A DNA stretch of 64,000 nt. It comes from a virus. Lineage: Duplodnaviria; Caudoviricetes. Made by a program: the position numbers and the translations under genes. Positions 12,293-28,038 of the stretch are shown one piece after another. Position 1 is the stretch's first letter, and every line of letters begins with the position of its first letter. The notes under the pieces are model-generated. The model was not told where the DNA came from. It made no database searches and saw nothing but the letters and a program-made list of their open reading frames with translations. The DNA is taken from IMG/VR virus record IMGVR_UViG_3300028588_000019, positions 1-64,000 of that record, one strand, 5' to 3'.

Positions 12293-12295
12293 GGC

Positions 12296-14527: not shown

Positions 14528-14550
14528 AAACCAACTAACAGGAGTAATTC

Positions 14551-14752: not shown

Positions 14753-14777
14753 AAAACAACAACATAGGGAGTAACTC

Positions 14778-14975: not shown

Positions 14976-15058
14976 CCCTCTACATCACTCTGCTCGGGTA
15001 CGTTGTACCTGCAATCGCAATCACGTACTTCGTCAAAACCATCATTAACGACCTGTGA
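14972..15058 (+). CDS. 28-aa single-TM peptide
   Basis: GTGA overlap; MTLYITLLGYVVPAIAITYFVKTIINDL. Confidence 0.5.
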   Translation: MTLYITLLGYVVPAIAITYFVKTIINDL

Positions 15059-15110
15059 AAGTAATTTGTAAGCCTGGCGCGCTAGGCTTGCGAGTGCACT
15101 TTCCCGCACT
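15059..15110 (+). repeat. Two-hairpin intergenic element, copy 3
   Basis: AAGTAATTT + GTAAGCCTGG-CGCG-CTAGGCTTGC + G + AGTGC-ACTTTCCC-GCACT. Confidence 0.85.
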
Positions 15111-15132
15111 ATCACAACATAAAGGTAATACT

Positions 15133-15483
15133 ATGAACACCATCACCACCCACGCAGCATACATCGCTCACCTCGTTTCTAACGGTCGTCACGCAGGCCT
15201 TGCCAAAGCAATGGTCACCGAGTTCTTCTGGTCAAGCATTAACGGACCAGAAAACGACCTGTTGTATTCGGGTAGCGACGAGGAAACGCCATGCAGCCTC
15301 GAGCCAGCGCAAGCACTTGCCGAATTCGATGCAATTGTTCATGATTACAACGCTGCTGTAACCGAGGATGGCATCATGTTCGACGGTGAACTTATGTTCG
15401 ACCTCGACGGTGAGTATGCCACAAGCGGCTCAGGCAACGCATCGATCGTTCGTGGCTACGAGAACGGCGGTAACTTCAACTAA
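15133..15483 (+). CDS. Acidic early protein
   Basis: AAGG RBS; D/E-rich, 116 aa. Confidence 0.65.
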   Translation: MNTITTHAAYIAHLVSNGRHAGLAKAMVTEFFWSSINGPENDLLYSGSDEETPCSLEPAQALAEFDAIVHDYNAAVTEDGIMFDGELMFDLDGEYATSGSGNASIVRGYENGGNFN

Positions 15484-15533
15484 GAGCAATTTACTACCTC
15501 AGCGTGCTGGGGTAGTGAGTGCGCTCTTGCACT
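15484..15533 (+). repeat. Two-hairpin intergenic element, copy 4
   Basis: GAGCAATTT + ACTACCTCAG-CGTG-CTGGGGTAGT + G + AGTGC-GCTCTT-GCACT. Confidence 0.85.
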
Positions 15534-15553
15534 ATCACAACATAAGGATTCAC

Positions 15554-15682
15554 ATGTACACAATTATCGCCTTGATTGAAGTTTGCCATGAAGTAGTCTT
15601 CACCCGCGACGGGTTGTACCTCGTCACCACCATCGTGGACCACTTCAACAAGCGCACCATCCAAATTGCAGAGGAGATCTAA
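15554..15682 (+). CDS. Small early protein
   Basis: AAGGA RBS; starts MYTIIALIEV. Confidence 0.55.
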   Translation: MYTIIALIEVCHEVVFTRDGLYLVTTIVDHFNKRTIQIAEEI

Positions 15683-15684
15683 TC

Positions 15685-15903
15685 ATGCGTCATCCAATCG
15701 ACTTTCAAGCTTCGCATGCTCAGATTAAAGAAGACCCTGAGTACGCAATCGAAGTGCTTGTTCACTATGTGCCGTTCAACCTGCACATGATGATTAACGA
15801 ATTCATGGACGAGTTCGTACAAAAGCATTCATTCCAGGTGTACACGGCCAGCCCACTCGTTGGTCAGTTCTTCATGTGGTTGAAGGACACCCACAAAGAT
15901 TAA
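15685..15903 (+). CDS. Small early protein
   Basis: GAGGAG RBS; 72 aa. Confidence 0.65.
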   Translation: MRHPIDFQASHAQIKEDPEYAIEVLVHYVPFNLHMMINEFMDEFVQKHSFQVYTASPLVGQFFMWLKDTHKD

Positions 15904-15952
15904 AGCTCTAGCTAAGTGGTCTTCACGGGCCACTTGACGAGCGCTTTGCTCG
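15904..15952 (+). repeat. Two-hairpin intergenic element, copy 5 (variant B)
   Basis: AGCTCTAGCT + AAGTGGTC-TTCACG-GGCCACTT + GA + CGAGC-GCTTT-GCTCG. Confidence 0.75.
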
Positions 15953-15969
15953 CTAACAAAGGAACTAAA

Positions 15970-16260
15970 ATGACTAAGATTGAATTAACGCAGTTCAAAC
16001 AGACCAACCTGCGCGATGTTCTTGAACGTGCACAGGAACTCTTGGTGAGTCTTGCAACCATCTGCAACGACAACAAGAGCCGAATCCAAATCGCTGAAAA
16101 GATGCTGAAGCAAGTTGACCCAGGCGATGACTGGGAGCGGGTTGCTTGGTCGCTGGTCAACATCGAGTTGGTTGAGCGGATTATTCGTGAAGAGGACGCA
16201 AGCCTTCTGAAGTATCCTGAAGACTGGGATGGCGGCATCAACGTTGGGACGAAGGAGTAA
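15970..16260 (+). CDS. Small early protein
   Basis: AAAGGA RBS; starts MTKIELTQF. Confidence 0.65.
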   Translation: MTKIELTQFKQTNLRDVLERAQELLVSLATICNDNKSRIQIAEKMLKQVDPGDDWERVAWSLVNIELVERIIREEDASLLKYPEDWDGGINVGTKE

Positions 16261-16263
16261 TTC

Positions 16264-16452
16264 ATGATTAAGCTGATCCCGCTCCCAAAGACGCCGAAGG
16301 TTCGCGTCAACCTGCACCTCGAGGAAGGTGTGGTCGCCCACTTCAAGCATGTCGCTGAGCTTGAAGAACGCCCATACCAGCCACTCATTAACAAGGTGCT
16401 TCGCGAGTATATCGAGTCGCTGCCGCCTGAGCAACGTTATCACAATCGCTGA
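16264..16452 (+). CDS. BrnA-antitoxin/CopG-like ribbon-helix-helix protein
   Basis: KVRVNLHLEEGVVAHFK...PYQPLINKVLREYI matches the BrnA pattern VtiRld.dV..wFk...gYQtriN..LR. Confidence 0.7.
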   Translation: MIKLIPLPKTPKVRVNLHLEEGVVAHFKHVAELEERPYQPLINKVLREYIESLPPEQRYHNR

Positions 16453-16570
16453 GGTGCTGATGTGTTTTGGGACTACGTTCTAGCAGTCATTGCACTGTGT
16501 TTGATCCCACCCGCCGTCGTATTCCTGATTCTTTGGTGGTTTGGCGACGACTTTTAATTAGGAGAGCGAA

Positions 16571-16789
16571 ATGAGTAAACCCCTCACGATTGAACAAGAA
16601 ATCCACGCTCGCATCAAACGGACCGAGCTTTTCGCAGCAATGAGGTCTTCAGGTAATTACGAAGACGATCTTGCAATTATCGACATCATTCTCGAAATGC
16701 GCGAGCGTGCCCGCAACGGGGGTGACCCCGAAGAACTCTTATACGAAGAGGGCTTTGAACCCGACTACGTATTTGACCTTATTGACTAA
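16571..16789 (+). CDS. Small early protein
   Basis: AGGAG RBS; DPEELLYEEGFEPDYVFDL acidic C-terminus. Confidence 0.7.
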   Translation: MSKPLTIEQEIHARIKRTELFAAMRSSGNYEDDLAIIDIILEMRERARNGGDPEELLYEEGFEPDYVFDLID

Positions 16790-16845
16790 AGCTCTAGCTC
16801 ATGACCACACTACCACGGTGCGGTCATGGTCGAGCGCTTTGCTCG
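16790..16845 (+). repeat. Two-hairpin intergenic element, copy 6 (variant B)
   Basis: AGCTCTAGCT + CATGACC..CACG..GGTCATG + GT + CGAGC-GCTTT-GCTCG. Confidence 0.75.
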
Positions 16846-16863
16846 TAATAGAAAGGACATTGT

Positions 16864-17028
16864 ATGCTGCAATACAGAAAGGCGCTGATTGATTTCAGCC
16901 ACGAGTACTTCCATCAGTACATCGATGAATTCCTTGCGGGATACAGCATCCCAGCAGGTATGACCTATCCTCAACTTGTCCACCAGTTCGCTGAGTGGTG
17001 CGAGTCTTGCGGCTTTTGGGAGGTTTAA
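16864..17028 (+). CDS. Small early protein (54 aa)
   Basis: AAAGGA RBS; starts MLQYRKALIDF. Confidence 0.55.
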   Translation: MLQYRKALIDFSHEYFHQYIDEFLAGYSIPAGMTYPQLVHQFAEWCESCGFWEV

Positions 17029-17030
17029 CC

Positions 17031-17237
17031 ATGAAGTTCGAATTCAAAAGCTCGAACGGCCAACTCATGATGAGTATTGAGTCCCCGAACACTAAGTTCG
17101 CCAAGCTGGTCAAGCAAATGTTCATTAACGAAATGAAAGACATTCACGGACCAGGCTTCAACATGTCCGTCTCCACTCCTATCGAGGGTGGGACGTTCGA
17201 GCAATACAGCCACGGTATCGAGTGCCGGGTATCATAA
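17031..17237 (+). CDS. Small early protein
   Basis: GGAGG RBS; starts MKFEFKSSNG. Confidence 0.6.
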   Translation: MKFEFKSSNGQLMMSIESPNTKFAKLVKQMFINEMKDIHGPGFNMSVSTPIEGGTFEQYSHGIECRVS

Positions 17238-17291
17238 AGTAATCTCCTAGCTCGTTCTGCGGGCTAGTGGATGCACTTTAAATATGTGTAT
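17238..17291 (+). repeat. Two-hairpin intergenic element, copy 7 (degenerate)
   Basis: AGTAATCT + CTAGCTCG-TTCTG-CGGGCTAG + altered second hairpin ATGCAC..GTGTAT. Confidence 0.5.
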
Positions 17292-17353
17292 GCACTTTTG
17301 CTTTTGCCATGGTATAATAACCGTGTTGTTCAATTTCACGACAAGGATAAACC

Positions 17354-17821
17354 ATGAGCAAGCGTCACGACATAAGCGGTCAAAAGTTTAATCAACTCAC
17401 TGTAACGAGTTTCTCGCACACAAGCCCAACAAGGCGTGCGATGTGGAATTGTGTCTGTGATTGTGGAGGCACAACAGTTGTGTCACTGCAAAACCTGCGC
17501 AATGAAAAGGTCAAAACTTGCGGGTGCATATTCACGTACCTCTGCCAAGATGAGATCTATGGTGTTTGGAGGGGTATGATTCAACGCTGTACCAATCCAA
17601 ACTCTGAAGGTTGGAAGCATTATGGTGGTCGAGGGATTACTGTCTGCGAACGATGGAAGTTGTTTAAGAACTTTCATGAAGATATGAGCCCGCGCCCTAG
17701 TCCCGAGTACCAGTTGGACCGCAAGAACAATGACGAAGGGTACTCAAAAGACAATTGTCATTGGATTACAGGCCTTGAGAACATTCAAAAGGCACACGCA
17801 ATTAAACGAAGTAAATCTTAA
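17354..17821 (+). CDS. HNH homing endonuclease
   Basis: WNCVCDCG, WRGMIQRCTNP, YGGRGITVCERW, LDRKNNDEGYSKDNCHW motifs; own extended -10 (TGGTATAAT) at about 17311. Confidence 0.9.
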   Translation: MSKRHDISGQKFNQLTVTSFSHTSPTRRAMWNCVCDCGGTTVVSLQNLRNEKVKTCGCIFTYLCQDEIYGVWRGMIQRCTNPNSEGWKHYGGRGITVCERWKLFKNFHEDMSPRPSPEYQLDRKNNDEGYSKDNCHWITGLENIQKAHAIKRSKS

Positions 17822-17843
17822 CAACGTAAAGGACAGACTAATC

Positions 17844-18122
17844 ATGAATAATCAGAACGCCCCGCAAACCGGTCAAGTATTCACCGGCGCAGGCATCGAC
17901 TACTACCGCTTGACCACACTCAAGCATGCTCTGAAACTGGAGTCCAAAGGCTTGAAGTCACGCGGAGGAGCACTTCGTCCGCAGTGGCATGCGCAACTTG
18001 GCCTTCGTTCACGTGACTCTTACCTCGTTTTCGTGAACAGGATCATTGACTTGCAGAACGAGTATCTCAAAGCTAATGGAACACCAGCTGAAAAGCTCAT
18101 TCCACATCTGGAGTCATTATAA
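17844..18122 (+). CDS. Hypothetical protein
   Basis: AAAGGA RBS; LKHALKLESKGLK motif. Confidence 0.65.
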   Translation: MNNQNAPQTGQVFTGAGIDYYRLTTLKHALKLESKGLKSRGGALRPQWHAQLGLRSRDSYLVFVNRIIDLQNEYLKANGTPAEKLIPHLESL

Positions 18123-18421
18123 GACGCAGAGTCGACGCCAAAATAAATTGTAACAGTTCCGTCCAATTGCGCGCAAACAAGCCCACAGCACCGAAAATCG
18201 GTTAAACTGGGCGTGTTGGTGCAGTAATTAGCGGGGTTTTGGGGGGTTTTTGGGTGCGGGTGCGCCCTACCCCCTAACCTAGTGCGCAAAACAGCGCCTA
18301 GGGTGCTTGCCGTGCGCGGCAGCTACCTTGCGGGTTACATGGTAAGTCCCCACGTTGCAGCTGCAAGGGGGTTTACCGGGTAATCTTGCCCAAGTTCTTT
18401 CACAATCTAAGGAGAAACACC

Positions 18422-19198
18422 ATGGCACAAGCTCAAACCTCCGCAGCTCCTGGCAAAACCAAAGCTGCGCCACGCGCATCCCGCGCAAAGAAACCGCAAG
18501 CTGAGCAAGTCGTGCAGACGACTGGCAATGCAACGGGCCCTGGCGGCAAGAACATGCCAGAAGTCACCGCGCAGAACCAGAACCCGCCTGAAATCACGCA
18601 AGAGCAGCGTCAAGGTGAACGTCGTCAGCAACAGCAGAGCGCAATCGCGCGCTTTGCCAACCAGTCGATGGACACCCCGGCAGCTCACAACGTGCCTGAA
18701 GTCACGGACGAACAGCGTAAGCTGATCGCCTTCCAGGAGCAGATGCGCATCACCGCTGAGCAGTTCGGTGTGCAGCTTCCGCCAAACCTCGAAGACGTGC
18801 TCAACGGCAAGGTTGAACAGCCGCAAGCTCAAGGCGCGCAGGGTGCACAACGTGCTCCGCGCAACGCTGACAGCCAGAACGGTGTCACGCGCCCTGCCAA
18901 GGGTACGAAGACCGGTCAGGTGTGGGACGCAGCCGACGCAATCTCGACCAGCAAGAACGGCCAACCGGCCACGATTGCTGAAGTCAAAGAGAAGTTGGCT
19001 GGTAGCGTCAACGACGCCACGACCCGCACGCAGTATTCGCGGTGGCGTAACTACCACGGCATCAAAGGCCGGCTCGATGCTCAACCTCAGCAGCAACAAG
19101 CTGCCAGTCCTGAAGGACGTGACGAGGGTATCGAGAAAGCCTTCGGTCGTCGCAAGGACGATGTCGACCGTCGCCAAGCTGAACCAGCTGCACAGTAA
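18422..19198 (+). CDS. Gln/Ala-rich protein with C-terminal wHTH-like domain (paralog family member 2)
   Basis: AAGGAG RBS; NGVTRPAKGTKTGQVWDAAD...VNDATTRTQYSRWR. Confidence 0.8.
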   Translation: MAQAQTSAAPGKTKAAPRASRAKKPQAEQVVQTTGNATGPGGKNMPEVTAQNQNPPEITQEQRQGERRQQQQSAIARFANQSMDTPAAHNVPEVTDEQRKLIAFQEQMRITAEQFGVQLPPNLEDVLNGKVEQPQAQGAQGAQRAPRNADSQNGVTRPAKGTKTGQVWDAADAISTSKNGQPATIAEVKEKLAGSVNDATTRTQYSRWRNYHGIKGRLDAQPQQQQAASPEGRDEGIEKAFGRRKDDVDRRQAEPAAQ

Positions 19199-19207
19199 TA
19201 CAATTTC

Positions 19208-19238
19208 AACCCCGCCCTGAACCAGCGGGGTTTTTTAT
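19208..19238 (+). terminator. Intrinsic terminator
   Basis: AACCCCGC-loop-GCGGGGTT followed by a T run. Confidence 0.7.
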
Positions 19239-19261
19239 TGGCAAAACTTTAGGAGTTAATC

Positions 19262-19435
19262 ATGATGAGTGGTGAAAAGCTTTACGCACTCTACGAAGAG
19301 GGGAACTCCACGTTGAACAATTGTATCGTCGACACTTGGGAGCAGTTATCAACTGACGACAAAGCTGTTTGGGAGCGCATGGCAGAAGATATCAACGACC
19401 ATACGCAACGTGCCATTACCGACGTATTCACCTAA
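19262..19435 (+). CDS. Small protein (57 aa)
   Basis: AGGAG RBS; its stop TAA abuts hammerhead 1. Confidence 0.6.
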   Translation: MMSGEKLYALYEEGNSTLNNCIVDTWEQLSTDDKAVWERMAEDINDHTQRAITDVFT

Positions 19436-19484
19436 CCACACTGACGAGACCTCAATGGTCGAAACCGCTTCGGCGGTCTGTGGT
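19435..19484 (+). ncRNA. Type I hammerhead ribozyme 1
   Basis: ACCACA CTGACGA GAC-CTCAATG-GTC GAAA CCGC-TTCG-GCGG TC TGTGGT: intact core, three stems, predicted cleavage after C19478. Confidence 0.92.
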
Positions 19485-19514
19485 ATGTGCCACGAGTAAC
19501 AGAAAGGAAGTAAG

Positions 19515-19796
19515 ATGGCAAAGATGTTTATGACAATCAAAACGGTCTATCATATTCGAGGTAAGTCTCCGAAAGTTAACCGTTCATACAACGCAAACAG
19601 AGCAGTCATGCAATGCGTCGCTCACATGCAAATCAACCACTACGGAGCACACGTTGCTGAAGTGTACGATGATGGCACAGGTGAACTGCATGCACAGGTC
19701 AAGCGCAAAGCAGACGGTTCGTTGCACATTCACTTCCAACGTGACCCGCAGAACTTCGAAACCAAGTACGCCATGTCCCATCTTTTAGGCCTTTAA
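19515..19796 (+). CDS. Hypothetical protein
   Basis: AAAGGA RBS just downstream of hammerhead 1. Confidence 0.65.
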   Translation: MAKMFMTIKTVYHIRGKSPKVNRSYNANRAVMQCVAHMQINHYGAHVAEVYDDGTGELHAQVKRKADGSLHIHFQRDPQNFETKYAMSHLLGL

Positions 19797-19806
19797 GGAG
19801 TTAGCC

Positions 19807-20046
19807 ATGAATAGTCAGATCCCGAGCAACTATACCTGCATGATTGACGAGTACCAGCGCAAGCTGATGCACGACGTGTTCCAGGCTGTGCTCCTGCGCG
19901 ACGATATGCGTGCACACTTAACCACACTAGAAGGATCCTTCGCGGACAACGCTCTGGAGGAACTGGAGATACTGCGTGACATGCTTAAGGATCTTCCCGA
20001 GCAAGAACAAAAGAGCCCAGGCGTAACTCACGGGCTGTGCCTGTAG
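19807..20046 (+). CDS. Hypothetical protein
   Basis: AAGGAG RBS; 79 aa. Confidence 0.65.
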   Translation: MNSQIPSNYTCMIDEYQRKLMHDVFQAVLLRDDMRAHLTTLEGSFADNALEELEILRDMLKDLPEQEQKSPGVTHGLCL

Positions 20047-20054
20047 TAATCACG

Positions 20055-20081
20055 AAGGGCTGAGTAGAGCCCTTTTATTTT
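20055..20081 (+). terminator. Intrinsic terminator
   Basis: AAGGGCT-GAGTAG-AGCCCTT followed by TTATTTT. Confidence 0.6.
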
Positions 20082-20096
20082 AATGAGGAGGTAATC

Positions 20097-20270
20097 GTGA
20101 ATAGTCTTGATCGGAGAATCGTACGTAGTCGTAATAAGCGAGAGGGTTGCTACTACGACCGACCTATTTGGTGGAAATACAAAAATGGTCCAAACCGTAA
20201 GAAACGGAACGAGTTAAAGCTGGTGCAACGCGGGAAGAAGTTTAGTACCACTCGGACCAAGAAAGTTTAA
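20097..20270 (+). CDS. Small basic protein (57 aa)
   Basis: GAGGAGG RBS, GTG start, K/R-rich; its stop abuts hammerhead 2. Confidence 0.6.
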   Translation: MNSLDRRIVRSRNKREGCYYDRPIWWKYKNGPNRKKRNELKLVQRGKKFSTTRTKKV

Positions 20271-20331
20271 CCACACTGACGAGCGCTAGTGCGCGAAACC
20301 GTGGCACGGAATATTGTGCGCGGTCTGTGGT
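20270..20331 (+). ncRNA. Type I hammerhead ribozyme 2
   Basis: ACCACA CTGACGA GCGC-TAGT-GCGC GAAA CCG..GCAC-loop-GTGC..CGG TC TGTGGT; predicted cleavage after C20325. Confidence 0.9.
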
Positions 20332-20650
20332 AGAAGTGAACAGTTTGCTGTTATTTGGGTTAGTATATGACAAATAATGGGTGCTTACCCTATGTAAACG
20401 TACTATAAATTAAGTAAAAAAGAAGATTATATATAGTATAGGTAGGAACACCCACCCTCCCGGGATGGTTTCGCAGCCCCAACACCACCCACAAATAACG
20501 CTAAAGCATAACTTGCTCGTTATTATGGCAATTAACTGTATATACTACCCTACCCCCGGCTGTTGTTTATTGCGTTAGCCCTGTTTCAGCACTATACAGG
20601 GGAGGGGTAGGGTGTTATATTAGTGGTTTCCCCACCACGCAAGGATCACC

Positions 20651-21316
20651 ATGCCCCCGATTCAACTACTTAACCATGTCAATCTTGAAACAGCTTACCT
20701 GCTGCCTGATTTCCCATACAGCTTCGGGACCAAAACGAAAGCTCGCTATTGGATTGAAACCCGCCAAGCATACGGGCAGCGGCTGTACACACAGTTCTGC
20801 GCACCTCGTTCGGAAAGCTGGTACAAGCCGAAGCCAAGCCTGTACAGCGACATCATTGTGATGACGGTGGACACCAATGGCTATGACGCTGGCTTAGTTG
20901 TCCCGCACTTTATCGACGTGCAATCATTAAACGCAGAGCAGCTCAAGCAGTTTGCGGAATATTTCGTCCTAACCCCTTTCCAAAAGGATCGTGTGATGAA
21001 GGGTCTTGCCCGGAACAATGTCCACTATGCCCCAAAGTGGCGCAACAGTGAGGGGCTTAACCTGCGCTTGCATATGATGGCTGAAACTAAACCAACTGCG
21101 TTGGAGCAAGTCACTAGAGGGGTAAACAGTGTGGGTATCACAACACAGTCTGCGGAGGATGCGCTCAAGGAACAACGTCGCCGCGAACGGGAAGCTAAGA
21201 CCATTATCAACACGCCCACCCCGGTCGCAAGGATGCCTAATGCAGACGCTGACGATACGACGGGCATGACCCCAGAGCAAATCGCTGTTTACAACGACCT
21301 GATGGGGAAGAGCTGA
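20651..21316 (+). CDS. Conserved phage hypothetical protein
   Basis: 221 aa; FPYSFG...RYWIE...WYKPKPSLY motif. Confidence 0.7.
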   Translation: MPPIQLLNHVNLETAYLLPDFPYSFGTKTKARYWIETRQAYGQRLYTQFCAPRSESWYKPKPSLYSDIIVMTVDTNGYDAGLVVPHFIDVQSLNAEQLKQFAEYFVLTPFQKDRVMKGLARNNVHYAPKWRNSEGLNLRLHMMAETKPTALEQVTRGVNSVGITTQSAEDALKEQRRREREAKTIINTPTPVARMPNADADDTTGMTPEQIAVYNDLMGKS

Positions 21317-21732
21317 TGACCTTCGACTTTATGAGCCTACCGCGCTCCGTCCAATCGGACGTCAAACCAATTGCTGAGCTCCAAGTGTACCATGTGGATG
21401 CACAGCTGGACGATGACCACACTTGGCCGGTTCTGTACCGCGCTCACTCACGCGTGGAATTCGCAGACTACTACGTCAGCGCTTCAGTCTGGTTTGCAGC
21501 TTACCGCATCCTGGACTACACGCCGTGTGGCGTTTGGATTTCGCAAGGTGTGCAGAAGCGCAAGTTCGTCAATCTCAAAGCTGTTAAGCAATGGGCTTAC
21601 CTTACTAAGGAAGAAGCCCTGCACAGCCTGAACCGGCGTAAGCAAATGCACGTTCGCCATCTTACACACGAACTTGCAGCGGCCGAGGCCCTTGCAGACT
21701 ACGTTCAGCGCACGATGGAGCATAACAAATGA
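21316..21732 (+). CDS. Hypothetical protein
   Basis: TGATG coupling; TPCGVWI...KQWAYLTKEEAL motif. Confidence 0.7.
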   Translation: MTFDFMSLPRSVQSDVKPIAELQVYHVDAQLDDDHTWPVLYRAHSRVEFADYYVSASVWFAAYRILDYTPCGVWISQGVQKRKFVNLKAVKQWAYLTKEEALHSLNRRKQMHVRHLTHELAAAEALADYVQRTMEHNK

Positions 21733-21840
21733 CACAGCAATACGATAAGCCCGTCACCCGGCATTTGTCGGTAACGGGTATTTCGAAGAAGATGTATTCA
21801 ACCAGATGTACGAAGATTTAGCTCCCGAGAAAGGAAGATA

Positions 21841-22116
21841 ATGGACTATAAATACCTCACATTCAAAACCGAGCGTTCTAGGATCCGCATAGCTAGGATT
21901 CTGAAGCTACTGGAAACTCCCATGACCCGCGACAAGCTGGAGGAATGTGGTTATATGAGCAAGACAACAGCGATTTACTGTCTACGTCATTTGCGAGAAT
22001 GTACGCCGCCGAAAATCTTCATCAGTGGCTACGAAGAACGTTTTCAAAACAGGCCTGCGCCGGTCTATTCATTAGGTGCGGGTCCGGACGTTCAACCGCC
22101 ACGGAAGGTTGCATGA
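21841..22116 (+). CDS. Winged-HTH protein
   Basis: MTRDKLEECGYMSKTTAIYCLRHL...PVYSLG. Confidence 0.6.
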   Translation: MDYKYLTFKTERSRIRIARILKLLETPMTRDKLEECGYMSKTTAIYCLRHLRECTPPKIFISGYEERFQNRPAPVYSLGAGPDVQPPRKVA

Positions 22117-22191
22117 ACAAATGGCGCTGCCGCTATTGCGGTGTATGGAACCGACCAACCGCTGTCATTTGCTGGTGCAGGAGGAAAATTA

Positions 22192-22416
22192 ATGAGCGAA
22201 CCTAAAGCGTACGACTACGTGATTGCCGCTGCTAAACTGGCTGCTCGCGATATGAAGCGTCTGAAAGCAAAGCCGCACATTGTCCAGATTCGTGATTTGG
22301 GTGGTACAGTTTTTTATGCGGTTTATAGGAACCGAAATGCTGTTCGTTTGATAGGTTACGTCAACAGCTTGGACCAGCTAACGCAAAATTGGGCCTACAT
22401 AACGCGGATGCCCTAA
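22192..22416 (+). CDS. Hypothetical protein
   Basis: GGAGG RBS; starts MSEPKAY. Confidence 0.6.
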   Translation: MSEPKAYDYVIAAAKLAARDMKRLKAKPHIVQIRDLGGTVFYAVYRNRNAVRLIGYVNSLDQLTQNWAYITRMP

Positions 22417-22507
22417 TAGCTGGAAATAAATTAAATTTCAGCCAATGCACTGTGGTATAATACTTACAGTGCATTTACGGAAGTTTATCAAAATACTAGA
22501 GGGTTAC

Positions 22508-22693
22508 ATGTTCAACAGTCCAGAACGACTCAAGCGTCTCGATGAGACTTGCATGCTCTGCGCCCAAAGGTTCGGAGATCATAGCGTCCACAACGAGTGC
22601 CCTACGATGAAGGAACGTAAGATCGTTCGGCACCATTTTGAAACCACCTTGTTCCGCGGAACGGGTCATTACAGGGAGCGACTGAAAGAATGA
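22508..22693 (+). CDS. Small Cys/His protein
   Basis: CMLCAQRFGDHSVHNEC; preceded by TGGTATAAT. Confidence 0.55.
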   Translation: MFNSPERLKRLDETCMLCAQRFGDHSVHNECPTMKERKIVRHHFETTLFRGTGHYRERLKE

Positions 22694-23016
22694 CGTACAA
22701 GACAGTAATCTGTGAAAACTTAGACTGCCGAAAGCAGTTTAAAGCACGCCTTGCGGACATTGCGCGGGGCTGGGGTCGTTTCTGCTGCAAAAGCTGTAAA
22801 GCTGCTGTACAGTCCCGTAACGGGGGTAAGCTACCAGCACTGCCCAAGCGGGGTAAACGCGCAGCACAACCCCGTAGGTTGCAACCAAAGGACCGTCCGC
22901 GCTACGCTACAACGCAACCTAAGCGCCCCGTAAACCATTGGGAAGTTGAGCATCAGCGGGCAAAAGACAATTTTGATGAGTACGATCGTATTTGCGCTGA
23001 GGAGGACCAGCAATGA
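22690..23016 (+). CDS. Zn-finger-like basic protein
   Basis: CENLDC...GRFCCKSC. Confidence 0.65.
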   Translation: MTYKTVICENLDCRKQFKARLADIARGWGRFCCKSCKAAVQSRNGGKLPALPKRGKRAAQPRRLQPKDRPRYATTQPKRPVNHWEVEHQRAKDNFDEYDRICAEEDQQ

Positions 23017-23186
23017 AGCCTTCCGGTGCACTTATCTTCGTCCGTACGACAAAGACCTACAACGTTGAAATGCCCTTGTACAGGCTGTACACCAAGTCTG
23101 GTTCAGCTGCTGGCGTTTACGCAAGTCACAGCGACGCTGCACGCTTCGCAGCTAAAAGCAATCTCGTGCATGTAGGTCCACAATGA
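23013..23186 (+). CDS. Small hypothetical protein
   Basis: GAGGAGG RBS; ATGA overlap. Confidence 0.5.
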   Translation: MKPSGALIFVRTTKTYNVEMPLYRLYTKSGSAAGVYASHSDAARFAAKSNLVHVGPQ

Positions 23187-23308
23187 ACCGTATCTGCAAA
23201 GTTTGCGGTCAACCCAAGGGCCTACCCATTCACACCGCTTGCAGTAGACAACTCAAAGCGGTCAAACGCTTAGCAGCTATTGCTAAGAAACAATCAGGTC
23301 TTAAATAG
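23183..23308 (+). CDS. Small Cys-containing peptide
   Basis: MNRICKVCGQPKG..H..C; ATGA overlap. Confidence 0.45.
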   Translation: MNRICKVCGQPKGLPIHTACSRQLKAVKRLAAIAKKQSGLK

Positions 23309-23316
23309 GAGGTATA

Positions 23317-23508
23317 ATGAAGTACAAAGCATTTTACAAATGTCGCTGGTGTCAGGGGGTTTTTAGCTATAGTGTGCCTGAAAACCACCGTAACAATCCG
23401 GTCGGTCTCACCATGCAACATTCGATGGTGACAACGCATAAGTGCGACGACATCCGAACAGGAATCGCTGACCTCATAGGCGTTAAGACGGAGAACTTAA
23501 ATGATTAA
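23317..23508 (+). CDS. Small Zn-ribbon protein
   Basis: GGAGG RBS; YKCRWC...HKC...GIADLIG. Confidence 0.65.
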   Translation: MKYKAFYKCRWCQGVFSYSVPENHRNNPVGLTMQHSMVTTHKCDDIRTGIADLIGVKTENLND

Positions 23509-23788
23509 CGCAACCAACTTCAAAACCCTCGACCTCAAGAAAGTAATTGAGCGCGCCAACGAAATCCTGTGCTGTCTGCCACTGCTTGATCCGCATGTGG
23601 CCTACGGTCTTGAGATTGCTGAAGGTCGTTTGACCGGGCAAGACATTGTATCTCGTCACGAACCGCTGGACCTGTGGGAGAAGCTGGCGTGGCAAATGGT
23701 TTACGCAGAGCTTCGAGAGCAATGCATTCGTGACGGTGACCCGAGCGTTGAAAAGCGCCCAGTCAATTGGAATGGTGGTTTGACCTAA
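23501..23788 (+). CDS. Hypothetical protein
   Basis: GGAG RBS; 95 aa. Confidence 0.6.
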   Translation: MINATNFKTLDLKKVIERANEILCCLPLLDPHVAYGLEIAEGRLTGQDIVSRHEPLDLWEKLAWQMVYAELREQCIRDGDPSVEKRPVNWNGGLT

Positions 23789-23837
23789 GTACCAGCCACA
23801 GCGTCGTGACAGGGCGCTGTAACGGGTGCTTTACCCG
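23789..23837 (+). repeat. Two-hairpin intergenic element, copy 8 (variant C)
   Basis: After TAA: ACAGCGTC-GTGACAG-GGCGCTGT + AA + CGGGT-GCTTT-ACCCG + ACAAC-AGAGGAG. Confidence 0.65.
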
Positions 23838-23855
23838 ACAACAGAGGAGAATGAG

Positions 23856-24059
23856 ATGGTAAACGTTTTAATCACCACGACGATGATGGATGTTTTTGAC
23901 GGTGTAAGCTGTTCGGTCCACACCGTCGTGGTCCCTTGCAATTCGATGGAGGAGGCGCGCAGGGTTGCAGAGAAGGTCAATGACGCGCAGAACACACGAG
24001 GTGAATTGAAATTGGGTGGTGCCGCAAAATACCTCCAAACTGCAATGGTGCTCGCATGA
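23856..24059 (+). CDS. Hypothetical protein
   Basis: GAGGAG RBS; starts MVNVLITT. Confidence 0.6.
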   Translation: MVNVLITTTMMDVFDGVSCSVHTVVVPCNSMEEARRVAEKVNDAQNTRGELKLGGAAKYLQTAMVLA

Positions 24060-24259
24060 ACATCGACCAACTTCGCGCCTGGCACATGGCTCGTGCTGCA
24101 ACATACCGCCAGTCGGCGGACAACACTGCCAAGTTACCCCACGCAAACGAACCACGCCAGCGCAGTGTAATCAAACGCGCCCACGAGAACGCTAACTTTC
24201 ACGTTAAATGTGTGGCGGCAATCGACGAGGTTCTTGAAGAACTGGAACCTGTGGCATGA
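24056..24259 (+). CDS. Hypothetical protein
   Basis: ATGA overlap; 67 aa. Confidence 0.6.
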   Translation: MNIDQLRAWHMARAATYRQSADNTAKLPHANEPRQRSVIKRAHENANFHVKCVAAIDEVLEELEPVA

Positions 24260-24525
24260 ACCGCCGTTTTGAAACCATCGAAGCAGCTGTCTTACACATG
24301 CAGGCCGCTTATGCAAAGTTGAGTCCAAGTGTGGTCACCTGGCACGTGCTTGAGCCCGAAGATAAACCTCAAGCACTATTGTTCATCTCTCAGCATTTCG
24401 TAAAGCTTGCAGATTGTGAAGAGATCTACACCGCATGGGTGACTTATGCCTTCGCACTCGGGGACATGGAGGTTGTATTCGAGCAAACACCCTACCACAC
24501 CGGATCCCCGGATCGACCCCACTAG
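24256..24525 (+). CDS. Hypothetical protein
   Basis: ATGA overlap; 89 aa. Confidence 0.6.
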   Translation: MNRRFETIEAAVLHMQAAYAKLSPSVVTWHVLEPEDKPQALLFISQHFVKLADCEEIYTAWVTYAFALGDMEVVFEQTPYHTGSPDRPH

Positions 24526-24592
24526 ACGCCTTAACGGGTGTATAATGGGGGTTGCAGTACACCCCGTTACCTTAACAATTTAGGAGTAGTAA

Positions 24593-24799
24593 ATGGATAT
24601 GCGAGTGCGCGAAAAGACGGACACCGATCGCCAAAACGACATCAACCGTCTTTCGCACCAAGAAATGGCGGAAATCATGCATTTCACGCCGAATAACCAC
24701 ACTTACCGCACTGGCCCATACCGCGCCATGTTCGACGCACGATTCAAGCGGCTGGGTGGTATGACCAAAGAACTGAAAAAAGAACTTGCAGCCTACTGA
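24593..24799 (+). CDS. Hypothetical protein
   Basis: AGGAG RBS; its TGA stop lies inside the core of hammerhead 3. Confidence 0.65.
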   Translation: MDMRVREKTDTDRQNDINRLSHQEMAEIMHFTPNNHTYRTGPYRAMFDARFKRLGGMTKELKKELAAY

Positions 24800-24840
24800 T
24801 GAGCTCGTAAGAGCGAAACCGCCGAGAGGCGGTCTAGGCT
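24790..24840 (+). ncRNA. Type I hammerhead ribozyme 3
   Basis: AGCCTA CTGATGA GCTC-GTAA-GAGC GAAA CCGCC-GAGA-GGCGG TC TAGGCT; predicted cleavage after C24834. Confidence 0.93.
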
Positions 24841-24872
24841 TAATAACAAGTCTAACTAAACCGGAGGTTATT

Positions 24873-25142
24873 ATGTTTGGAGGAGCCAATAAGTCGGACA
24901 ACATGCGCCTGGAAATGGCAATTGCTGCGGCTTTAAAGAAAGAAGCACAGGAAAAGATTGCAGCAGGTATTGAACCTGAAGTCCCACGTGAGAAGATCAT
25001 TTGGAGTGCAACCTTTCCGGCATTACCGAAAATGAAGCCAATCCAGAGCGACGATCCTGTTCTGTTCAAACAGACCATTGATAAACTGCGTGCGCAACTT
25101 CCTGGAACGACGATTAACATCTACGAAATCCGCGGGCTGTAA
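24873..25142 (+). CDS. Hypothetical protein
   Basis: GGAGG RBS just downstream of hammerhead 3. Confidence 0.65.
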   Translation: MFGGANKSDNMRLEMAIAAALKKEAQEKIAAGIEPEVPREKIIWSATFPALPKMKPIQSDDPVLFKQTIDKLRAQLPGTTINIYEIRGL

Positions 25143-25143
25143 T

Positions 25144-25674
25144 ATGTCAAAAGTTATTGCAAGAGAGGTGCAGCAACGCCTCCATAAATTTGAACGTTGG
25201 TTGAAGTCACGTGGTGCCGAAATTCTTATAAACACCAACCAATACGAGTTAATCCGTTTTCGCGGAACCAAAGGTACGTCCATTGTTTACCGCAAGGACA
25301 ACCTTGATGCGGCTGCAAGCTTTTTCAACGAAGCTGAAGATGCTTGGTGCAACTATTTGGTGAACGGTCCGTGGCGTGCTATTTTGCCCACACCAAGGCA
25401 AGCCGGTCACCGCAATGGCGTCGAAATGCGCACCATCCGCGCACGCGACGGTAACGATTGCTTCTTTTGCTGTGAATACGTTACTGAGCACTCTGCAACA
25501 ATCGAGCATCTTGTTGCTCTTGGTCAGGGTGGACCGCAGCACATCAGCAACAAGTTCCTAGCCCACGGCGAGTGCAACATGCGCGCAGGTAACATTAGCG
25601 CACCGGAAAAGATTAAGATACACACTGACGCGCTTTTGCGCAAGAACGGAAGGAAGGTTTATGAACCAAGCTGA
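25144..25674 (+). CDS. HNH endonuclease with N-terminal extension
   Basis: RDGNDCFFC...TIEHLV...GG....N...AHGECN. Confidence 0.85.
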   Translation: MSKVIAREVQQRLHKFERWLKSRGAEILINTNQYELIRFRGTKGTSIVYRKDNLDAAASFFNEAEDAWCNYLVNGPWRAILPTPRQAGHRNGVEMRTIRARDGNDCFFCCEYVTEHSATIEHLVALGQGGPQHISNKFLAHGECNMRAGNISAPEKIKIHTDALLRKNGRKVYEPS

Positions 25675-26143
25675 AGGTATCGAGAAGCTCGAAGATGCCA
25701 CTATTAACCGAGCTCTCGAAATTTTGCACGGACGTATGAAGAAGCGCGGTCCGCTCATGTGCAGTCCGGAGCTTATGTATGACTTCATTAAACTTAAGAC
25801 CGGAAACCTGGAACACGAGGTGTTCGGTGCAATTTTGATGGACACTAGTGGGTGTTATATCACGCACGAAATCCTGTTCCGTGGTACGTTGCGCGAGACA
25901 CCTATCCCGGCGCGTGAAGTTATCAAGTTTGCGCTACATCACAACGCGTGCATGATGGTGGTGTTTCACAATCATCCTAGCGGAAGTACCAGCCCAAGCC
26001 CCGCCGACATTAAGTTCACAGCGGTGCTGGCAAAAATTCTCAAGTACGTAGACGTACAATTGGTTGACCACATTATCGTTGCAGGCGACCAGTACGTGTC
26101 GTTTGCAGAAACCGGCATTATGCCACAACCGGAGGCAGGTTAA
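25661..26143 (+). CDS. radC: RadC-like JAB/MPN protein
   Basis: EHEVFG, LFRGTL, FHNHPSG..PS.ADI, LVDHII motifs. Confidence 0.9.
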   Translation: MNQAEGIEKLEDATINRALEILHGRMKKRGPLMCSPELMYDFIKLKTGNLEHEVFGAILMDTSGCYITHEILFRGTLRETPIPAREVIKFALHHNACMMVVFHNHPSGSTSPSPADIKFTAVLAKILKYVDVQLVDHIIVAGDQYVSFAETGIMPQPEAG

Positions 26144-26146
26144 ATA

Positions 26147-26395
26147 ATGCGAGTTATCACCCTGTTACCGCTCAGCAAACGCGCTAAACAGCTTATTAAG
26201 CAACACGGTGAACGTTGGGAAGTCGTGCGCAAGCAGAACCAAGTGCTCTTTAATCTTGCACCCGGACCGTGGCTGTTAGTTCAGCCGCTCAGCGAAGAAC
26301 GTGCACCTGCGAACGACATGCGTGCGGCTCGAGTAGAAACCGCTTCGCGTTGGGTGCATGAGTTTAATGACACTGAATTTAAAGTAGCGCCTTAA
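26147..26395 (+). CDS. Hypothetical protein
   Basis: GGAGG RBS; 82 aa. Confidence 0.6.
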   Translation: MRVITLLPLSKRAKQLIKQHGERWEVVRKQNQVLFNLAPGPWLLVQPLSEERAPANDMRAARVETASRWVHEFNDTEFKVAP

Positions 26396-26404
26396 CCAGA
26401 AAGG

Positions 26405-27490
26405 ATGAGTATGAACAACGACAAATGCGCCCACTGTGGCGCCAAGGCTGGCGAACCAGCATGCGACTGGATTGAATGCAACGGTCATTCCCCGCAGATA
26501 GCGGAGAAGGTGGAGCTGCCGAGCATCGACACGCCTGAATTCCAAGCGCTGGTCGAGGGCTGGCGCAAATACCCATACGGCACACGAGAATTCTTGATCG
26601 CATGGGCCGCGATCATCGCTCATGTAGACCACGCTATCGCCGCATCCCGCCGTGCCGAGCTAACTTACACCGTCGATGGTGTCGTCATGTCGCCGTTGGA
26701 ATATATTGACTACCTGCATGACAAGATCGACACCCCTGCACCTGCCAGCGCAGGGCAAGCCGCCCCGGCCCTGCCCGAGCAGGACGCCAGGGCTGCATTC
26801 AAATCGGCGTTCTTGTCATGGAACGGGCTCCATACCGACGCAGAGCTAGAAAAGGAATGGGCGCGCGGGACGTTGGCTGGTGAAATGTTCCGTGCTGGTC
26901 TCGCCGCCCAGCCTGCCGAGGTCAGCGCAGGGCAAACCGGTCAGGTGGCGATTCCGCGCATTCCAACTGAAGCGATGTTGGACGCAGCCCGCGATTGGTC
27001 GGTGAATAAGTACAGCCAAGGTATCGGCAACGACGCCGCCATCGGCTGCTGGCAAGCGATGTACGACGCCACCGAGCGCGCAGCGGCACAGGGCGAGAAA
27101 GCACCCGCCACCAGCGCAGGCAATCAGGGCCATACGCCTGGGCCATGGGCGGTCGGCGATAAGGCCATGGACGAGTACCCGATATTCCGCAAGCATGACG
27201 GCAAAATGCACTGCGTGGCCGTCGCCTTCACCGAAGCCGATGCTAGGCTGATCGCCTCCGCACCGTCTCTTTCGACCGACAGAGCAGCGGCACCGGCAGA
27301 TGCACGCGACGCGGCGCGGTATCGCGTTCTGCGCATGCACGTTGCGCCGCGCGATGTGTCGATCAGCATGCAGGTCCCTCCCGAGGACATTCCGCCGGAT
27401 CAGGCTGTTGAGGAACGCATCGACATGCTGTGCGATCAGGTGGTGGACCGCGCCACCCATCAGCCCAGCGCACAGAAAGACAACAAATGA
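26405..27490 (+). CDS. Mosaic Ead/Ea22-like accessory protein
   Basis: Short modules (C..C Zn motif, PTEAML, HTPGPW, DAARYR) separated by PA/SAG linkers. Confidence 0.6.
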   Translation: MSMNNDKCAHCGAKAGEPACDWIECNGHSPQIAEKVELPSIDTPEFQALVEGWRKYPYGTREFLIAWAAIIAHVDHAIAASRRAELTYTVDGVVMSPLEYIDYLHDKIDTPAPASAGQAAPALPEQDARAAFKSAFLSWNGLHTDAELEKEWARGTLAGEMFRAGLAAQPAEVSAGQTGQVAIPRIPTEAMLDAARDWSVNKYSQGIGNDAAIGCWQAMYDATERAAAQGEKAPATSAGNQGHTPGPWAVGDKAMDEYPIFRKHDGKMHCVAVAFTEADARLIASAPSLSTDRAAAPADARDAARYRVLRMHVAPRDVSISMQVPPEDIPPDQAVEERIDMLCDQVVDRATHQPSAQKDNK

Positions 27491-27714
27491 CCACACAACG
27501 CCTTAACGGTTGCCATTCACTCCCGCGAGCAAATGAAACAAAGCTGCTCATTGTCCAAGATGGCTTCATGCCTATTGTTCACGACGGTTTTGGAAATCCG
27601 CAAGTAATTCCGAAGTACAAATACATCCAACACTTCACAAACAATGCTAAATGCATGTATGACCTCAAGAGCTCGGACGAAGGTTGTAAAGGATGCCCGT
27701 CGCAGATGACATAA
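27487..27714 (+). CDS. Small Cys-rich protein
   Basis: ATGA overlap; starts MTTQRLNGCH, ends GCKGCP. Confidence 0.6.
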   Translation: MTTQRLNGCHSLPRANETKLLIVQDGFMPIVHDGFGNPQVIPKYKYIQHFTNNAKCMYDLKSSDEGCKGCPSQMT

Positions 27715-27768
27715 ATTATTTAACGCAAGCGTTAAATATTCCACTTAACGCTTGCGTTATGCGCTATA

Positions 27769-28038
27769 ATGCACACCCCGAACACAACATTGCACGCTAT
27801 GGAAACTGTCACACAAGCGCAAGAGTGTTTCGATAAGAAATACATTGCAGCATCAGAAATCATGGAGCAACTTGGTGTAACCCGCGCCGCGTTGCTGTAC
27901 GCACGCCGAACTAACCGTCTGCCACAGGGTATTGTGGTTAGTAAAGGTCTGCTCTTTATTTGGGAACGCGAACAGGTTGAAGCGCAAATTCGCGAATGGA
28001 AAGCTGAACTAGAAATGCGCCGCAAGGGACAGGTATGA
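27769..28038 (+). CDS. Excisionase/AlpA-like HTH protein
   Basis: YIAASEIMEQLGVTRAAL...LP...LFIWERE; true start may be 27799. Confidence 0.65.
   Translation: MHTPNTTLHAMETVTQAQECFDKKYIAASEIMEQLGVTRAALLYARRTNRLPQGIVVSKGLLFIWEREQVEAQIREWKAELEMRRKGQV

What the first reader, a model, noticed from the sequence alone, without database searches (positions are those of the whole stretch)
19435..24840. Three hammerhead ribozymes each fused to the stop codon of an early phage gene
Seen: three separate loci (19435, 20270, 24790) each have a perfect core (CUGANGA, GAAA, GUC triplet) and fully paired stems I-III. Stem II and III sequences differ between copies, so the structure rather than the sequence is conserved. 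All are on the coding strand and start at or inside a stop codon. Established: hammerhead cleavage leaves a 2',3'-cyclic phosphate and a 5'-OH, and 5'-OH ends are poor RNase E substrates. Inference: the phage cuts its own early polycistronic RNA without protein, uncoupling or stabilising downstream genes.
Basis: partly seen in the sequence, partly recalled or inferred. Interest (0 to 1): 0.88.

Follow-up and report, generated by a model that had tools for sequence, protein, structure and literature searches.

The report
Three hammerhead ribozymes between phage genes
Three textbook self-cutting hammerhead RNAs sit directly behind the stop codons of small genes in an uncultured 72-kb phage. They most likely cut its long messages into pieces, an arrangement known for phages since 2011 and seen many times in this scan.

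Summary
There are exactly three canonical type I hammerheads: 19435-19484, 20270-20331 and 24790-24840, all on the + strand. My own scan found 3, with 0.01 expected by chance. A covariance model built only from hammerheads of other phages scores them 63, 47 and 41 bits; the next hit scores 14. Each starts at the last base of a TAA stop, or holds the TGA stop inside CUGAUGA. Rfam's curated thresholds miss all three.

They belong to a widespread phage subfamily: 71 IMG/VR contigs share the CCACA/UGUGG stem I, and stems II and III covary strongly. In 45 of 66 members the upstream gene ends within 3 nt of stem I or inside the core. HH1 is kept at the syntenic site in a distant relative, although the flanking DNA has diverged fully.

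The 3' cleavage products of HH1 and HH3 would begin with a hairpin that competes with stem I. This hairpin is enriched across the subfamily.

The function is inferred, not shown: cutting messages at gene borders and leaving protected ends. The "early" timing is a guess from gene position. This is a new member of a known kind (Perreault 2011). The scan has found the same design on other DNA many times. Interest is modest.

The parts
19435..19484 (+). HH1, type I hammerhead. Stem I is 19435-19440 with 19479-19484. Core CUGACGA is 19441-19447, stem-loop II 19448-19460, GAA 19461-19463, stem-loop III 19464-19477 and C17 19478. The cut follows 19478.
   Evidence: 63.2 bits, E 1e-15 with model R1 built from foreign phages; conserved at the syntenic site in G001
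20270..20331 (+). HH2, type I hammerhead with the same stem I and core as HH1. Stem II is GCGC/GCGC. Stem III is long, with one bulge. The cut follows C17 at 20325.
   Evidence: 46.8 bits, E 5e-11
24790..24840 (+). HH3, type I hammerhead with its own stem I (AGCCUA/UAGGCU) and a GUAA loop II. The core CUGAUGA holds the upstream TGA stop at 24797-24799. The cut follows C17 at 24834.
   Evidence: 41.0 bits, E 2e-9
19479..19494 (+). Hairpin at the very 5' end of the HH1 3' product (UGUGGU-AUGU-GCCACG). It uses the 3' strand of stem I, so it excludes the ribozyme fold.
   Evidence: -6.5 kcal/mol; 15 of its 16 bases are identical in G001, where the flanks are diverged; CCAC enrichment in the subfamily
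24835..24854 (+). Hairpin at the 5' end of the HH3 3' product (UAGGCUU-AAUAAC-AAGUCUA). It has a different sequence but the same design as the HH1 hairpin.
19262..19435 (+). 57-aa ORF with a good ribosome-binding site. Its TAA supplies the first base of HH1 stem I. No family was found for it.
   Evidence: G001 has an unrelated 60-aa ORF in the same slot
19515..19796 (+). 93-aa gene, the first cistron after HH1. Its start lies 30 nt after the ribozyme.
   Evidence: 32% identical homologue directly after the G001 hammerhead; no family
20097..20270 (+). 57-aa basic ORF (GTG start, ribosome-binding site GAGGAGG). Its TAA supplies the first base of HH2 stem I.
24593..24799 (+). 68-aa ORF that ends on the UGA inside the HH3 core. 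A perfect TATAAT lies about 50 nt upstream of its start.
24873..25142 (+). 89-aa gene, the first cistron after HH3. An HNH endonuclease gene (25144-25674) and a DNA-repair-like gene follow it.
19214..19238 (+). Intrinsic-terminator-like hairpin plus a run of T, just upstream of the mini-gene that precedes HH1.
   Evidence: the same layout occurs in G001
20054..20083 (+). Intrinsic-terminator-like hairpin plus a run of T, just upstream of the mini-gene that precedes HH2.
20332..20650 (+). Non-coding stretch of 320 nt after HH2. It holds a 17-nt inverted repeat (20540-20556 with 20604-20620) and a promoter-like TATACA-17-TATATT with an upstream TG.
   Evidence: not conserved in sequence with the equivalent G001 stretch

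Best explanation
These are three working type I hammerhead self-cleaving ribozymes, transcribed as part of the rightward run of small phage genes.

Each folds as soon as it leaves the polymerase and cuts after its C17, at 19478, 20325 and 24834.

The upstream piece keeps its stop codon and ends in the compact ribozyme body with a 2',3'-cyclic phosphate. The downstream piece starts with a 5'-OH. For HH1 and HH3 its first 16-20 nt snap into a hairpin that takes over the 3' strand of stem I. That would release the product, block re-ligation and leave a flush 5' stem-loop ahead of the ribosome-binding site.

The net effect would be that neighbouring cistrons get separate, defined and protected ends, so their lifetimes and translation are uncoupled. 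HH2 has no gene for 320 nt downstream, so it mainly trims the 3' end of its unit.

Shown here: the motifs, their statistics, covariation, conservation and layout. Inferred: cleavage in vivo, and all effects on RNA fate.
For: - Core and stems are canonical, with 3 hits against 0.01 expected by chance.
- A model built from 28 hammerheads of other phages finds only these three in the window, at 63, 47 and 41 bits; the next hit scores 14.
- Subfamily covariation is strong. 99.2% of cells are paired, and 63 cells show changes on both sides against 19 in shuffles. The covariation score is 0.404 against 0.099, and slid controls give about 0.03.
- In the syntenic relative G001, HH1 and its downstream hairpin are conserved and stem III is replaced by a different pairing sequence. 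The upstream ORF shows no similarity and the downstream protein is 32% identical.
- The layout of stop, ribozyme, about 30 nt with a ribosome-binding site, then start fills the whole gap. This recurs in 45 of 66 subfamily members.
- CCAC, the complement of GUGG in stem I, lies 4-13 nt after stem I in 19 of 48 distinct contexts, against 2.7 +/- 1.4 in shuffles.
- The products of HH1 and HH3 fold into 5'-terminal hairpins.
- Published precedent exists: clustered hammerheads flanking prophage genes cleave in vitro and in E. coli, and a halovirus early transcript starts at a hammerhead site (PMC3088659).
Against:
- All three have 4-bp stems II with 4-5-nt loops. No loop II-downstream pseudoknot was found, although long-loop relatives use one. 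They look like minimal hammerheads, which are slow at low Mg2+ (stated in PMC3088659).
- For HH3, and for the G001 copy of HH1, the minimum-energy fold of the full-length RNA is the non-ribozyme conformer. Cutting would therefore have to be co-transcriptional.
- Terminators just upstream of the HH1 and HH2 mini-genes make the extent of polycistronic transcription uncertain.
- HH2 and HH3 are absent from the closest relative found.
- Whether a 5'-OH stabilises or destabilises the product depends on the host, which is unknown.
Confidence: 0.7

Rival explanations
1. Translation-gated cutting. The stop codon lies in stem I (HH1, HH2) or in the catalytic core (HH3). A terminating ribosome would therefore cover the 5' strand and prevent folding. 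On this reading, cleavage reports that the upstream mini-gene is not being translated.
For: The stop codon abuts or overlaps the ribozyme in all three copies, and in 45 of 66 subfamily members. The upstream ORFs are unrelated mini-genes with strong ribosome-binding sites, as would be expected of sensor ORFs.
Against: Tight packing alone could place the ribozyme flush against the stop, because the downstream side must hold the ribosome-binding site. Nothing links cutting to translation here. Earlier follow-ups in this scan reached the same open verdict.
Confidence: 0.15
2. The ribozymes make 3' ends rather than activate downstream genes. Their main job would be to give each upstream mini-gene message a structured end that resists exonucleases and cannot be polyadenylated. 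They would also stop read-through RNA from entering the next unit.
For: In type I topology the whole ribozyme stays on the upstream piece. HH2 is followed by 320 nt without a gene and by promoter-like sites. Terminator-like hairpins flank these units.
Against: HH1 and HH3 are followed within about 30 nt by a ribosome-binding site and a gene. A conserved hairpin is built into the downstream product, which points to selection on the downstream piece too. This reading overlaps with the best explanation rather than excluding it.
Confidence: 0.1
3. Circular or spliced RNA. HH1 and HH2 share identical stem I strands. The 847-nt piece between their cut sites could therefore pair its own two ends into a hammerhead and be ligated into a circle. 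Alternatively, the outer pieces could be joined.
For: Both begin TAACCACACUGACGAG and end GGUCUGUGGUA. Type I topology leaves the catalytic body on the cyclic-phosphate end. Perreault 2011 raised the idea.
Against: The shared stem I is a subfamily-wide trait, seen in 71 contigs, not a pairwise match. An intrinsic terminator lies inside the piece. The phage encodes no RtcB, RNA ligase or kinase. In phage G005 the stems I within one hammerhead array differ from each other. Perreault 2011 looked for such products and found none.
Confidence: 0.03
4. Chance motifs or dead relics with no present function.
For: None of the three reaches an Rfam gathering score. HH2 and HH3 are not found in the closest relative.
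Against: The chance expectation is 0.01. The cores are intact. Stem III changed compensatorily across a fully diverged flank. The E-values from the independent model range from 1e-15 to 2e-9.
Confidence: 0.02

Closest known systems
Clustered hammerhead ribozymes flanking single genes or short gene blocks in prophages (Perreault et al. 2011, PMC3088659)
   Same: Several hammerheads in one orientation lie between co-oriented phage genes. The proposed role is cutting a long transcript into gene-length mRNAs. Cleavage was shown in vitro, and in E. coli for the Agrobacterium triple.
   Different: This phage is an uncultured 72-kb siphophage with terminal repeats, and no integrase was seen in the window. 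All three copies are type I with short stem-loops II and no pseudoknot. They are flush with, or overlap, the upstream stop codon, and two are followed by a product hairpin that competes with stem I. No activity data exist.
Rfam Hammerhead_1 (RF00163), type I hammerhead
   Same: The topology (stem I open), the core and the cleavage site are the same. HH1 aligns end to end with the model.
   Different: The scores fall below the gathering cut-off (26.6 against 34). HH2 is not detected and HH3 matches HH9 better. Stem I is nearly fixed as CCACA/UGUGG in this phage subfamily.
Hammerhead variant of haloviruses HF1/HF2, upstream of an early helicase gene (discussed in PMC3088659)
   Same: It lies in a virus early region, a few nucleotides before a start codon. 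The mapped 5' end of the transcript lies at the cut site.
   Different: It is an archaeal virus with a core variant, present as a single copy.
RiboJ-type synthetic insulators: a hammerhead followed by a hairpin ahead of the ribosome-binding site (own knowledge: Lou et al. 2012)
   Same: The order of parts and the logic match: cut off the upstream context, then leave a hairpin at the new 5' end before the ribosome-binding site.
   Different: RiboJ is engineered from a type III satellite-RNA hammerhead, and its hairpin does not compete with stem I. This is a likeness of function only.
glmS ribozyme (5'-OH product fate; PMC6765202)
   Same: Self-cleavage leaves a 5'-OH that determines how host RNases treat the downstream mRNA.
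   Different: It is metabolite-dependent and a different fold. Its product is destabilised in Bacillus.

Membership tests
Hammerhead ribozyme (clan CL00010) | Conserved core: C3 U4 G5 A6 N7 G8 A9, G12 A13 A14, A15.1-U16.1, and H17 that is not G | tested here: met
   All 13 fixed positions are present in HH1, HH2 and HH3; H17 is C; G10.1-C11.1 is also present
Hammerhead ribozyme (clan CL00010) | Three helices around the core, with no mispair next to the core | tested here: met
   Stem I has 6 bp, stem II 4 bp and stem III 5-10 bp. The minimum-energy fold equals the hammerhead fold for all three. HH2 stem III has one bulge, away from the core.
Hammerhead ribozyme (clan CL00010) | Helices supported by covariation among relatives | tested here: met
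   28 foreign members: 99.2% paired, 63 cells changed on both sides against 19 in shuffles. 55 pattern-only members: stem III is 97-100% paired at its five pairs nearest the core that the search pattern left free, with 4-5 pair types at most of them. HH1 against G001: stem III was swapped compensatorily.
Hammerhead ribozyme (clan CL00010) | Site-specific self-cleavage that gives a 2',3'-cyclic phosphate and a 5'-OH | not testable with these tools
Hammerhead ribozyme (clan CL00010) | Tertiary contact between stem I and loop II (loop-loop or pseudoknot), needed for fast cutting at low Mg2+ | tested here: not met
   No loop II-downstream complement of 4 bp or more occurs in the short-loop class, which includes these three (1 of 20 against 2.8 expected). 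Long-loop relatives have one in 23 of 28. An unrecognised contact is not excluded. Perreault 2011 notes that many natural members lack a known contact, so this feature does not decide membership.
Rfam Hammerhead_1 (RF00163) | Score at or above the curated gathering cut-off (34 bits) | tested here: not met
   HH1 scores 26.6 bits. HH2 and HH3 are not listed for this model.
Type I topology | Stem I is open and stems II and III are closed by loops, so the ribozyme body stays on the 5' product | tested here: met
   Order along the strand: stem I 5' strand, core, hairpin II, GAA, hairpin III, C17, stem I 3' strand
Clustered phage/prophage hammerheads (Perreault 2011) | Several copies, in the same orientation as the genes, in gaps between phage genes | tested here: met
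   Three copies lie on the coding strand within 5.4 kb of an all-plus-strand run of small genes. The phage identity rests on portal, terminase, tape-measure, primase and polymerase hits.

The most novel reading that the evidence does not exclude
The ribozymes are one-shot timed switches rather than plain cutters. On the 5' side, the terminating ribosome sits on the stop codon built into stem I or the core. On the 3' side, a conserved hairpin competes for the 3' strand of stem I; in HH3 the freed 5' strand can instead pair with the next ribosome-binding site.

Cutting would then be possible only in a short co-transcriptional window. That window would fix the share of transcripts that become separate, hairpin-capped 5'-OH messages.

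The fixed CCACA/UGUGG stem I across phages of unrelated hosts would reflect this switch, not shared descent.
Probability: 0.2. Interest if true: 0.55.

Novelty: new member of a known kind. Interest (0 to 1): 0.3.

Why it matters
What bacterial and phage hammerheads are for is still open (PMC6765202). This locus adds clean, intact examples, with a conserved counterpart in a distant relative.

It also gives a compact, testable design: stop codon, ribozyme, competing product hairpin, ribosome-binding site. That design could be moved into a reporter to ask whether cutting insulates, stabilises or times expression of neighbouring genes.

On the practical side, Rfam's thresholds miss all three copies, so routine annotation under-counts this phage subfamily. 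The finding does not change what is known in kind.

Tried and rejected
- Rfam at gathering thresholds found nothing in the window. Rfam in E-value mode over 13000-19100 found no ribozyme class in the other gaps.
- Megablast and blastn of the region and of HH1 against cultured phages gave no usable match. The closest named phages are Seuratvirus-like, at about 45% identity in the DNA polymerase.
- The search for related loci with the 93-aa protein found nothing.
- PHROGs, Pfam and the protein atlas gave no function for the small proteins next to the ribozymes.
- RtcB, RNA ligase and kinase families are absent from the phage, so no phage enzyme heals or seals the ends.
- A loop II pseudoknot is not supported for these three copies.
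- A lenient, G-U-tolerant count of the downstream hairpin was only weakly above shuffles. The strict CCAC count was clear.
- A ribozyme-headed conserved small RNA after HH2 was tested against G001; the sequence is not conserved.
- Circular or spliced RNA between HH1 and HH2 was considered and found no support.
- Extension of stem I into the flanks gave only weak extra pairs for HH1.
Full report
**What the window is.** The window covers bases 1-64000 of a 72,474-bp IMG/VR virus record with direct terminal repeats. PHROG hits identify portal, terminase and tape-measure genes on the minus strand. Primase, helicase and DNA polymerase genes lie on the plus strand. The polymerase is about 45% identical to Seuratvirus-like siphophages, and no close cultured relative exists. 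From about 13,300 to 30,600 every plausible gene is on the plus strand, and most are small. The finding lies in this run. "Early" is therefore a guess from position, not a result.

**Observation.** The three sequences read as canonical type I hammerheads.
- HH1 (19435-19484): ACCACA-CUGACGA-[GACC UCAAU GGUC]-GAA-[A CCGC UUCG GCGG U]-C^UGUGGU.
- HH2 (20270-20331) has the same stem I and core, stem II GCGC/GCGC, and a 10-bp stem III with one bulge.
- HH3 (24790-24840): AGCCUA-CUGAUGA-[GCUC GUAA GAGC]-GAA-[A CCGCC GAGA GGCGG U]-C^UAGGCU.

The upstream ORFs are 19262-19435, 20097-20270 and 24593-24799. The first two end on TAA, whose last A is the first base of stem I. The third ends on the UGA inside CUGAUGA.

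A pairing-aware scan of both strands finds these three loci and nothing else, against 0.01 expected in shuffles. A pattern search of the whole record also gives only these three. Each folds into the hammerhead shape as its minimum-energy structure. Rfam's curated cut-offs report nothing. In E-value mode HH1 reaches 26.6 bits on Hammerhead_1, HH3 reaches 25.8 on HH9, and HH2 is not listed.

**A wider family.** A pattern fixing only the core and the HH1/HH2 stem I (CCACA...UGUGG) matched 71 IMG/VR contigs. It matched only 5 of about 185,000 species genomes, all metagenome bins of unrelated phyla. About 0.03 chance hits are expected by my estimate.

The pattern left most of stems II and III free, so pairing there is an unbiased test. 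Stem III pairs in 97-100% of 55 distinct members at its five pairs nearest the core that the pattern left free. Most of those positions show four or five pair types.

On a 28-sequence alignment, 99.2% of cells pair. 63 cells show changes on both sides against 19 in shuffles, and the slid controls collapse. A covariance model built from those 28 foreign sequences scores HH1 at 63.2 bits, HH2 at 46.8 and HH3 at 41.0. The next hit in 64 kb scores 14 bits. HH3 has a different stem I, so its score is a fair independent test.

**Conservation in a relative.** The contig behind L009 (G001, 69 kb, terminal repeats) shares gene order with this phage. It has the same unit: terminator, a small ORF, TAA plus hammerhead, then a gene whose product is 32% identical to that of 19515-19796. 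The small upstream ORFs show no similarity, and the flanking DNA aligns no better than random.

Even so, TAACCACACUGACGAGACCU..GGUCGAAAC and GUCUGUGGUAUGUGCCAC are identical in the two phages. Stem III is replaced by a different sequence that still pairs, CCGC/GCGG against GCCC/GGGC. That is purifying selection on the fold. HH2 and HH3 have no counterpart in G001. In the relatives behind L067 and L071, hammerheads sit after other homologous genes of the same array. The elements therefore come and go between slots.

**Layout.** In 45 of 66 distinct family members the upstream ORF stops 0-3 nt before stem I or on the core UGA. The next start codon, with a ribosome-binding site, follows 21-58 nt after the ribozyme. 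Fusion to the stop codon is thus a family trait, not a peculiarity of this phage. Earlier follow-ups in this scan report about the same share on other DNA.

Here the gaps are 79 nt (HH1) and 73 nt (HH3), and they are completely filled by ribozyme, about 30 nt of leader and the ribosome-binding site. HH2 differs, because 320 nt without a gene follow it. That stretch holds an inverted repeat and promoter-like sites and shows no sequence conservation with G001. Terminator-like hairpins lie just before the mini-genes that precede HH1 and HH2.

**Downstream hairpin and tertiary contact.** Relatives with long stem-loops II have a 4-5-bp complement between loop II and the bases just after stem I. This occurs in 23 of 28 against about 8 expected, and it is the pseudoknot described by Perreault 2011. 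Short-loop members, including all three here, have none.

Instead, CCAC lies 4-13 nt after stem I in 19 of 48 distinct contexts, against 2.7 +/- 1.4 in shuffles. It can pair with the GUGG of stem I's 3' strand. The 3' products of HH1 and HH3 fold from their first base into 6- and 7-bp hairpins, although their stem I sequences differ. HH2's product does not.

With flanks included, the hammerhead fold is the minimum-energy structure for HH1. For HH3 and for the G001 copy, the competing conformer wins. In HH3 the freed 5' strand then pairs with the next ribosome-binding site. I infer that cutting must happen co-transcriptionally. After cutting, the hairpin would capture the product, prevent re-ligation and leave a flush 5' stem-loop. 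A more lenient count that allowed G-U pairs was only weakly above chance, so this rests mainly on the strict count and on the G001 conservation. The same idea was noted on another phage in this scan.

**Mechanism and rivals.** The best reading is protein-free cutting at gene borders that gives each piece a defined and protected end. The upstream piece ends in the ribozyme body plus a cyclic phosphate. The downstream piece begins with a 5'-OH plus a hairpin. HH2 would serve chiefly as a 3'-end maker.

The phage encodes no RtcB, RNA ligase or kinase, so the ends stay as made unless the host acts on them. Translation gating by the stop codon is possible but untested. A circle or splice between HH1 and HH2 has no support. 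The shared stem I is family-wide, a terminator lies between the two, and stems I within the hammerhead array of another phage (G005) differ from each other. Chance is excluded.

**Comparison and novelty.** Perreault et al. 2011 (PMC3088659) described multiple hammerheads flanking genes in prophages. They proposed processing of long phage transcripts and showed cleavage in vitro and in E. coli. The 2019 review (PMC6765202) calls the function still unresolved. This locus is a new member of that kind.

The scan has reported the same design on many other genomes. The stop-codon fusion and the competing product hairpin are refinements, not a new category.

**Seen in passing.** The 9-mer TAACCACAC is the stop codon plus the 5' strand of stem I plus C3 of HH1 and HH2. 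It occurs 14 times in the window against 0.6 expected. Most copies lie inside genes, in different reading frames.

It is similarly enriched and strand-biased in the relatives G001-G003, but not in unrelated hammerhead-bearing phages. No flanking bases are conserved, and some copies sit at orthologous sites. I cannot explain it.

Noticed in passing
window + strand: 3278, 14214, 19433, 19919, 20268, 24694, 30170, 31319, 42124, 47071; - strand: 60089, 46847, 33179, 1019: The 9-mer TAACCACAC occurs 14 times against 0.6 expected, with at most 4 in 100 shuffles. Most copies lie inside coding regions in different frames; some lie just before a ribosome-binding site or a start codon. The relatives G001 (16 copies, 14 on one strand), G002 and G003 share the excess, and some copies are at orthologous sites. 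Unrelated hammerhead-bearing phages do not share it. No flanking bases are conserved. The word equals the stop codon plus stem I 5' strand plus C3 of HH1 and HH2. Its function is unknown; a nick site, a protein-binding site or an RNA signal are possibilities.
   Followed up: partly
window 14480-14550, 14701-14777, about 15058-15132, 15484-15553, 15904-15969, 16790-16863, 17238-17300, 23789-23855: A repeated intergenic element has this order: stop codon, AGTAATTT or AGCTCTAGCT, hairpin 1, hairpin 2 (GAGTGCRC..GCACT or GAGCGC..GCTCG), an A/C-rich tract, then the ribosome-binding site. It is conserved in relatives L009, L067 and L071. In L067 a hammerhead follows the homologue of gene 16571-16789, where this phage has the two-hairpin element. 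The two kinds of element therefore occupy equivalent slots after a stop codon. There is no Rfam match.
   Followed up: partly
window 20332-20650: A non-coding stretch of 320 nt follows HH2. It holds a 17-nt inverted repeat (20540-20556 with 20604-20620), C-rich and G-rich tracts and a promoter-like TATACA-17-TATATT with an upstream TG. The equivalent position in G001 is also about 300 nt of non-coding DNA, but the sequence is not conserved.
   Followed up: partly
window about 17320-17335, 22450-22465, 24538-24548: Strong sigma-70 -10 elements lie inside gaps of the small-gene run: TGGTATAAT twice (the second inside a perfect hairpin, 22444-22475) and TATAAT about 50 nt before ORF 24593-24799. 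The run may therefore be several transcription units rather than one.
   Followed up: no
G005 (contig of L004) about 8,680-13,230, minus strand: An unrelated 66.6-kb phage carries about eight type I hammerheads in 4.6 kb, roughly one per gene junction. Their stems I are similar but not identical: CCACA, CCACG, CCACU, UCACA and GUUACG.
   Followed up: partly
window 17354-17821 and 25144-25674: Two free-standing HNH endonuclease genes lie in the small-gene run. The second is one gene downstream of HH3.
   Followed up: no
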